Source: Eledone cirrhosa
Taxonomy: Eukaryota
Reading direction: 5' to 3'
NCBI GenBank assembly: GCA_964016885.1
Contig: OZ024745.1
Span: 94,426,001 to 94,490,000 of the forward strand
Length of the DNA stretch: 64,000 bases
Shown here: piece by piece, positions 6,017 through 6,490 of the stretch
Layout of the letters: every line of letters begins with the position of its first letter
How positions within the stretch are numbered: the stretch's first letter is position 1
Position numbers and translations under genes: made by a program
The notes under the pieces: model-generated
Told to the model about the DNA's origin: nothing
Databases searched by the model: none
Seen by the model: the letters and a program-made list of their open reading frames with translations, nothing else

Positions 6017-6490
6017 GAAAAAATGGGGAGAAGAATACTGCATGGTTGCACATGGATAACATGTTATAAAATGAGTCCCTCATCAGTGATTTACCAACGG
6101 TCATAGGTATTTCATTGCATTAAAAATCATATACCTCACGTTGGCGCAATAATAACTAAAATAAGTTATTAGGACAATTAAAACGCTTAAAGCGAGTGAG
6201 ACAAGTAAACAACACAGAGGAAAGCTAACCGAAGATAGGAAGAGATACAAGCTACATAGTTATTCTATCAGTATAAGCTGGGTGAATATATGACCGAGTA
6301 GAAAATAGACCTTTCGAGATGAATCCGATGTAAGAAAGAAGGAAAATCGTTAACGTCGCGAACGGGGGGAAGTGAGAAGGGGAGAAACAGTGAGTGAGTG
6401 AGTGGAAGTGTGAGGAAGAGGTCAGTAGAGAGAAAGTGTTAACTGACATGACAGAGGGGACGAAAGAAAGTAAGAGAAACAGAGAGAACA
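6017..6490 (-). mobile_element. Non-coding pyrimidine-rich element, architecture like 16136-16787
   Basis: Pyrimidine-rich body on minus strand, then permuted hammerhead, then CATGT.GCAAC..GCAG..CCCATTTTT end running into (TA)n. Confidence 0.55.
6070..6145 (-). ncRNA. Non-circularly permuted hammerhead-like motif (copy 2)
   Basis: Minus strand GCCAACG tg AGGTA-TA-TGATTT ttAATGcaat GAAA TACCT atgac CGTTGGT AAATCA CTGATGA gggactCATT; stems I and III pair well, stem II is weak next to the core. Confidence 0.6.

What the first reader, a model, noticed from the sequence alone, without database searches (positions are those of the whole stretch)
6070..6145. Second, sequence-divergent permuted hammerhead with compensatory helices
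Seen on the minus strand: the same C-B-A order and near-identical spacing as 16649-16721, but with different helix sequences that still pair: stem I TGATTT/AAATCA, extension GCCAACG/CGTTGGT, stem III AGGTA/TACCT; core CTGATGA, GAAA, triplet AUA. Two helices replaced wholesale while pairing is kept is independent support for the fold. Stem II next to the core is poor in this copy (only CATT/AATG), so it may be inactive.
Basis: seen in the sequence. Interest (0 to 1): 0.8.

Follow-up and report, generated by a model that had tools for sequence, protein, structure and literature searches.

The report
Rewired hammerhead ribozyme in animal retrozyme
This is one of many thousands of copies of a small non-coding mobile repeat in an animal genome, and it carries a predicted self-cutting hammerhead RNA whose parts run in a scrambled order previously reported only from environmental RNA, here with one of its helices split and likely rejoined through a four-way junction.

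Summary
Real, and larger than reported. The motif (6075-6175, minus strand) has the full hammerhead core in S-G-C order, the non-circular permutation that Eckert 2023 found only in metatranscriptomes. It sits in a 426-683 nt tandem, 5'-truncated, (TA)n-targeted non-coding repeat with at least 14,933 pattern matches (control 1). Across 29 subfamily representatives stem II is composite instead: one pair next to the core plus four pairs supplied by the 5' leader, joined with a hairpin and a closing helix in a four-way junction. The seven-helix model pairs in 91% of cells, and 22 of 35 pairs change on both sides. This interrupts block C, which Eckert assumed unbreakable; 1 of 283 copies passes the core and stem II part of their descriptor. 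The window copy equals its subfamily majority, so it is not decayed. In sister subfamilies seven deletions of 13 to about 170 nt start exactly at the predicted scissile bond, none at the neighbouring positions: indirect evidence of cleavage in vivo. Best reading: a Penelope-mobilised retrozyme with a new hammerhead wiring. Cleavage, expression and an autonomous partner are not shown.

The parts
6017..6490 (-). 5'-truncated single copy of a ~530-nt tandem non-coding repeat (retrozyme-like), ending at the family's fixed 3' end in (TA)n
6172..6175 (-). closing helix Pa, 5' strand (pairs with 6075-6078)
   Evidence: helix 1, 79% paired, 2 of 4 pairs change on both sides; in the centroid fold
6150..6171 (-). 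8-bp hairpin Pb, one arm of the predicted four-way junction
   Evidence: helix 2, 97% paired, 4 of 8 pairs change on both sides
6146..6149 (-). distal stem II, 5' strand, supplied by the leader (pairs with 6115-6118)
   Evidence: helix 3, 91% paired, 3 of 4 pairs change on both sides
   Evidence: helix 4, 93% paired, 5 of 6 pairs change on both sides
6124..6136 (-). block S: stem III 3' strand, U16.1 (6131), A17 (6130), stem I 3' strand; predicted cut between 6130 and 6129
   Evidence: deletion scars at this bond in sister subfamilies
6119..6123 (-). 5-nt linker from stem I to stem II with invariant UAA
   Evidence: UAA was also part of the search pattern
6105..6118 (-). block G: stem II 3' strand, position 11.1 (6114), GAAA, stem III 5' strand
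6093..6099 (-). bridging helix, 3' strand
   Evidence: helix 4
6079..6092 (-). block C, cut short: stem I 5' strand, CUGAUGA, G10.1 (wobble with U11.1)
   Evidence: helices 6 and 7; the 10.1-11.1 pair is a standard pair in 219 of 283 copies
6075..6078 (-). closing helix Pa, 3' strand
   Evidence: helix 1
6070..6084 (-). competing hairpin that would bury the core; found in 3 of 29 representatives, this one included
16136..16790 (+). homologous subfamily: partial tandem (16136-16259 and 16260-16790) with the same ribozyme

Best explanation
The stretch holds all conserved hammerhead core bases in S-G-C order inside a high-copy non-coding tandem repeat, and it likely folds into a self-cleaving ribozyme that would cut read-through transcripts into unit-length RNAs for copying by a Penelope-type reverse transcriptase. 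Shown: core, order, seven covarying helices, copy number, tandem and 5'-truncated anatomy, (TA)n targets, deletion scars at the predicted bond. Inferred fold: the strand after CUGAnGA gives stem II only one pair (10.1-11.1) and then closes the whole motif by pairing with the far 5' end; the leader gives the other four pairs of stem II and runs straight on into the helix that bridges stems I and II; an 8-bp hairpin makes the fourth arm. It is therefore a type-SGC hammerhead opened inside stem II. Inferred cycle: tandem copies are transcribed, cut once per unit after AUA or AUC, the units are joined to circles or used as linear templates, and a Penelope-like RT/GIY-YIG protein starts at a fixed internal point, writes them into (TA)n, and goes round the circle or jumps to the cut 3' end of a unit. 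The single window copy has one cut site only and is likely a dead-end insertion with an intact ribozyme.
For:: 90.9% of 1,015 cells paired (shuffles 79.5, slid controls 29-44%), 22 of 35 pairs with changes on both sides, 0 of 500 shuffles; 19 double changes in 14 disjoint pairs of extant sequences against 2.3 +/- 1.5 (max 9 in 5,000); the top 4 of 7,140 column pairs by corrected mutual information are model pairs; the centroid fold recovers Pa, Pb, the bridging helix and stem III unaided; copies found by the hairpin alone keep both core motifs in 35 of 49, the rest being single-copy changes, truncations or deletions; among all 93 copies with a non-U base after H17, seven distinct deletions of 13, 13, 16, 41, 46, 49 and about 170 nt start exactly at the bond without microhomology, two more with 1 nt, and two have 2-nt insertions there; controls show no deletion of 10 nt or more one base later (0 in 100 listed of 173) or one base earlier (0 of 73). 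L421 carries the same 46-nt junction in both tandem units. Head-to-head fusions with 5'-truncated Penelope-like ORFs without a microsatellite at the joint: L004/L199 and L219; L061/L062 hold a similar chimera with a short third piece between. Eckert showed that type-SGC ribozymes cleave.
Against: No cleavage assay and no RNA data. The canonical G10.1-C11.1 pair is rare (19 of 283); 64 of 283 copies have no standard pair there. A single-pair arm in a four-way junction has no precedent in the papers read. The window subfamily has a competing hairpin that is in its minimum-energy fold. The scar test was run on sister subfamilies, not this one, was prompted by one junction seen first, and rests partly on counts by eye. 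In one search, 49 changed cells break a pair. No autonomous element with this ribozyme in 75 Penelope-anchored loci. In a 2026 preprint only 1 of 9 tested retrozyme dimers cleaved.
Confidence: 0.85

Rival explanations
1. The family is catalytic, but the window's subfamily is a slowed or switched-off version: the hairpin over the core wins, and cutting needs a protein, a dimer or the circular form.
For: Competing hairpin of -3.6 kcal/mol in 3 of 29 representatives and in the minimum-energy fold; G.U at 10.1-11.1; AU-rich stem I. Axolotl retrozyme hammerheads with weak helices cleave well only as dimers.
Against: This subfamily is young (best copies 96-99% identical), occurs in tandems, and differs from its nearest sister in the helices by a compensatory pair and not by breaks. 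The centroid fold prefers the closing helix.
Confidence: 0.3
2. The fold is kept for binding the Penelope protein or for setting where reverse transcription starts, and no longer cuts.
For: It lies about 60 nt before the fixed 3' end. An anole Penelope element starts reverse transcription internally, and hammerhead cleavage was not needed in vitro.
Against: Catalytic bases are invariant over subfamilies that are only about 62% alike, also when copies are found by the hairpin alone; scars fall on the scissile bond.
Confidence: 0.07
3. The repeats are solo or tandem pseudo-LTRs shed by an autonomous Penelope-like element that carries this ribozyme and that I did not find, or they spread as DNA satellites.
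For: A 2026 preprint derives animal retrozymes from pLTRs; Craig 2021 lists Naiad elements with unexplained half cores; only three Penelope queries were run here.
Against: No coding sequence runs into the unit in the same direction in the loci examined; 0 of 75 Penelope-anchored loci have the motif in their own 3' UTR; dispersed, 5'-truncated copies and junction scars point to an RNA route.
Confidence: 0.2

Closest known systems
Type-SGC hammerhead ribozymes (HRIMA-1 and variants), Eckert et al. 2023, PMC10085705
   Same: Block order S-G-C, short linker from stem I to stem II, a helix bridging stems I and II directly after the stem II 5' strand, full core.
   Different: There the stem II 5' strand and the bridging strand follow CUGAUGA; here they lie at the 5' end, block C is interrupted after 10.1, and a hairpin plus a closing helix form a four-way junction. 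[quoted passage not shown]
Non-LTR retrozymes of animals, Cervera and de la Pena 2020 (PMC7229834); Li et al. 2026 preprint (10.64898/2026.07.22.740005)
   Same: Non-coding tandem units with one hammerhead each, thousands of copies, in a genome rich in Penelope-like elements.
   Different: Those carry type I hammerheads and mostly fold into strongly self-paired circles; this unit is longer (426-683 nt), pyrimidine-rich and folds hardly better than shuffles (-64 against -58 +/- 5 kcal/mol).
Penelope-like elements and their pLTR hammerheads, Craig et al. 2021 (PMC8557442); Frangieh et al. 2024 (PMC11167929)
   Same: Partial tandems, 5' truncation, inverted truncated copies, (TA)n targets, fixed internal 3' end.
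   Different: No ORF; the Penelope families examined here carry type I or degenerate type I motifs, not this one.

Membership tests
Hammerhead ribozyme | CUGAnGA and GAAA core, A15.1-U16.1 pair, H17 | tested here: met
Hammerhead ribozyme | Stems I and III flanking the core, with covariation | tested here: met
   helices 5 and 6 (84% and 98% paired)
Hammerhead ribozyme | A helix in the place of stem II next to A9/G12 | tested here: inconclusive
   The strand before GAAA is paired over five positions, but with two different partners (helices 3 and 7); the geometry is inferred
Hammerhead ribozyme | Site-specific self-cleavage after H17 | not testable with these tools
   Indirect only: deletion scars at the bond
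Type-SGC hammerhead (Eckert 2023) | Block order S-G-C with a short stem I to stem II linker and a bridging helix | tested here: met
Type-SGC hammerhead (Eckert 2023) | Uninterrupted block C: CUGAnGA followed directly by the stem II 5' strand | tested here: not met
   1 of 283 distinct copies passes the core and stem II part of the published descriptor
Non-LTR retrozyme | Non-coding tandem units, one ribozyme per unit, high copy number | tested here: met
   longest ATG ORF 70 aa
Non-LTR retrozyme | Type I hammerhead | tested here: not met
   Order is S-G-C
Non-LTR retrozyme | Highly self-paired circular monomer | tested here: not met
   41% paired, about one standard deviation below 30 shuffles
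Non-LTR retrozyme | Expression as linear and circular RNA | not testable with these tools
   No RNA holder listed
Non-autonomous Penelope-like element | Partial tandems, 5' truncation, inverted truncated copies, (TA)n targets, fixed 3' end | tested here: met
Non-autonomous Penelope-like element | Homology to the pLTR of an autonomous element | tested here: inconclusive
   Not found in 75 loci from three queries; the search was not exhaustive

The most novel reading that the evidence does not exclude
A seventh hammerhead wiring beyond the six proposed permutations: an SGC ribozyme opened inside block C, with stem II rebuilt through a four-way junction, active in vivo and driving a retrozyme family of more than 15,000 copies in an animal genome. 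It would be the first non-circularly permuted ribozyme with a chromosomal host and a role, and a sign that descriptor-based scans have missed a class of Penelope-linked ribozymes.
Probability: 0.7. Interest if true: 0.85.

Novelty: new variant of a known kind. Interest (0 to 1): 0.8.

Why it matters
Non-circular permutations of RNA were known from one study, in RNAs of unknown hosts, and that study assumed three unbreakable blocks. This family breaks a block, gives the permutation a genomic home and dozens of naturally covarying variants, and can be tested with one short transcript. The junction scars give a way to read ribozyme activity from DNA alone and bear on the open questions of what hammerheads do in Penelope-like elements and how animal retrozymes are copied.

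Tried and rejected
Rfam: no hammerhead match at E up to 5, but the type I motifs of the window were missed as well, so this blank is weak. Twister: the linker resembles the twister UAAUGC word, but the other twister elements are not there by inspection; rejected. Relatives elsewhere: 0 in viral contigs; 48 of 48 metagenome matches are chance; prokaryotic genomes not scanned; no other animal genome can be searched with these tools. Expression: no RNA holder listed; contigs of four coded runs from one study cover the stretch but show nothing on ends or level. 5' truncation points: many lie within 7 nt of the cut site, but pattern selection and TATA microhomology make this uninformative; not used. 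Autonomous partner: not found. A tree-based count of changes along branches was not obtained; disjoint pairs of extant sequences were used, and the two most distant pairs may share branches. Earlier findings of the scan: nothing. The first hairpin pattern had a loop one base too long and gave 18 hits; corrected.

Full report
Observation. On the minus strand the window has, 5' to 3', the cleavage block (stem III strand, UA, stem I strand; 6124-6136), the GAAA block (6105-6118) and the CUGAUGA block (6079-6092). This S-G-C order is not a circular permutation of the type I, II or III hammerheads. It is the type-SGC order of Eckert et al. 2023 (PMC10085705).

Setting. The motif is in a 474-nt piece (6017-6490) of a repeat with 3,876 first-look candidates; the best 40 were scored, and the full-length hits are 96-99% identical. 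Copies form partial tandems with periods of 426-683 nt (one spacing of 257 nt set aside as a truncated unit), are cut short at the 5' side, end at a fixed point about 60 nt behind the core and run into (TA)n; inverted truncated copies are common. The longest ATG ORF of a 528-nt monomer is 70 aa. Core patterns match 2,225 (control 0), 14,933 (control 1) and 2,480 times (control 0); these sets overlap and miss mutated copies, so about 15,000 is a lower bound. The second window family (16136-16790) is a homologue, 62% identical over 435 nt.

Structure. I collected 162 distinct ribozyme copies, clustered 120 with an intact leader and aligned 29 representatives chosen by hand for diversity (alignment A1; one of 30 candidates was dropped as truncated). 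Instead the four bases before position 11.1 pair with the leader (6146-6149 with 6115-6118); in the window's subfamily both sides have changed together. Position 11.1 pairs with 10.1 as A-U, G.U, U-A or G-C in 219 of 283 distinct copies. The bases behind 10.1 pair with the far 5' end (6075-6078 with 6172-6175), and an 8-bp hairpin (6150-6171) lies between. In the window copy these four arms meet with no unpaired base, a predicted perfect four-way junction. The seven-helix model pairs in 90.9% of 1,015 cells, 22 of 35 pairs change on both sides, no shuffle of 500 reaches it on these measures, and slid versions give 29-44%. The model was derived from these sequences, so two further checks were made: the top 4 of 7,140 column pairs by corrected mutual information are model pairs, 8 of the top 13, and 14 disjoint pairs of extant sequences show 19 double changes against 2.3 +/- 1.5 for permuted partners, with 23 wobble-keeping and 49 pair-breaking changes. 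The weakest parts are the 10.1-11.1 pair (69%), the closing helix (79%, partly a one-base register shift) and the outermost stem III pair.

Relation to the published SGC. In Eckert's SGC-1 the stem II 5' strand, one base and the bridging strand follow CUGAUGA (read from the oligonucleotides; alignment line). Here the same run (stem II strand, one base, bridging strand) stands in front of block S. The motif is thus SGC opened behind 10.1; in a circular unit the whole body of the repeat is an insertion in stem II. Eckert assumed that CUGAnGA and its neighbouring paired bases cannot be separated, and their descriptor demands CGAAA, CUGAUGAG or CUGAUGAUG and two more pairs; 1 of 283 copies passes this part, which would explain why such a family escapes that search.

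Is the core under selection? My core patterns select for it, so I searched by the hairpin alone: 5,150 matches, control 0. Of 49 such copies in fetched loci 35 keep both core motifs, and the other 14 are point changes, truncations or deletions; the 100 listed matches show no subfamily without the GAAA block (by eye; the listing stops short of CUGAnGA).

Signs of cleavage in vivo. Three loci showed a deletion starting exactly behind H17. I then listed all copies of the commonest subfamilies with a non-U base after H17 (93 of 93). Most are point changes. Seven distinct deletions (13, 13, 16, 41, 46, 49, about 170 nt) start at the bond without microhomology, two more with 1 nt, one removes 1 nt, and two copies have 2-nt insertions. 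The long one recurs at about a dozen loci and is counted once, since its carriers share an upstream variant. One base later there is no deletion of 10 nt or more in 100 listed of 173 (six run into (TA)n, three join foreign sequence, four share a 5-nt microhomology deletion); one base earlier none in 73 of 73 (only 1- to 5-nt slips). Classes were read by eye for the full lists and by script for 46, 30 and 23 distinct copies. A hand estimate for six events (the first-seen one left out) all at this position is (1/2.58)^6, about 0.003. A fixed upstream side with a variable downstream side is what joining or template jumping onto a defined RNA 3' end would leave (inference; template jumping with untemplated bases is recalled from R2 work, and a search found no paper on it for Penelope). 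L421 has the same 46-nt junction in both tandem units, as expected from copying a circle more than once, though local duplication also fits; L355 has two different junctions.

Who moves it. The genome is rich in Penelope-like RT/GIY-YIG elements (15,080 and 62,031 first-look candidates; Pfam support weak). None of 75 loci anchored on them has this ribozyme in its own 3' UTR. But truncated ribozyme repeats are fused head to head with truncated Penelope ORFs without a microsatellite in L004/L199 and L219, the latter among 24 loci picked by the ORF alone. Together with the shared anatomy (Craig 2021) and internal initiation (Frangieh 2024) this makes Penelope machinery the likely carrier.

The window copy. 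It is identical to the majority of 43 aligned copies over the ribozyme, so it is not decayed. It has G.U at 10.1-11.1 and a competing hairpin over the core. I put the chance that this very sequence cleaves in vitro at about 0.65, and that the family does at about 0.88.

Literature. Ten full-text searches found no report of a non-circularly permuted hammerhead in a retroelement or an animal genome; subscription journals, Repbase and Dfam were not searched. Read: PMC10085705 main text parts 2-6 of 8, supplement parts 1 and 8 of 42 and search passages, no figures; PMC7229834 parts 2-4 of 6; the 2026 preprint parts 1-3 of 5, its supplements not seen; PMC8557442, PMC11167929 and PMC13725137 as passages only. 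The unseen supplementary file of Craig 2021 on half cores may bear on novelty. Hammerhead numbering is from my own knowledge.

Verdict. A real ribozyme-like structure, a new variant of the SGC hammerhead in a new setting; catalysis is strongly implied but untested.

Noticed in passing
window 5855-6016 and 16813-16930: A second small repeat with a type I hammerhead (core at 5927 +, 16902 -; U.U at the base of stem II, GUA site) in an inverted, palindromic arrangement; in both places it abuts the 3' end of an SGC copy across (TA)n.
   Followed up: partly
window 27813 (+), 62857 (+), 61109 (-): Three more type I or minimal hammerhead-like motifs with paired stems I and III; the one at 61109 lies in an arm of the 274-nt inverted repeat 60947-62215.
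   Followed up: partly
L234 (G000:C4:169242836-169246402), 3' UTR: A very abundant Penelope-like family (62,031 candidates) has a type I hammerhead with a long insertion in the stem II loop and a short palindromic stem III, read by eye; it may be one of the 'half cores' of Craig 2021.
   Followed up: partly
L199-L223, 3' UTR: Another abundant Penelope-like family (15,080 candidates) has only a degenerate hammerhead-like core in its 3' UTR.
   Followed up: no
L283, L286, L299, L332, L341, L354, L355, L432-L435, L439: A lineage in which the cut site is joined to a fixed body position about 170 nt downstream; that position could be a transcription start or an RT stop.
   Followed up: partly
window about 19600-24000: Long array of a 24-bp unit with strong strand skew.
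   Followed up: no
window about 30800-58000: Several LINE-like elements with endonuclease/RT reading frames in series, including frames of 634 and 1,153 aa at 36703-42066; the clade was not tested.
   Followed up: no
window 63148-63574: Perfect 213-bp palindrome with a 1-nt spacer.
   Followed up: no
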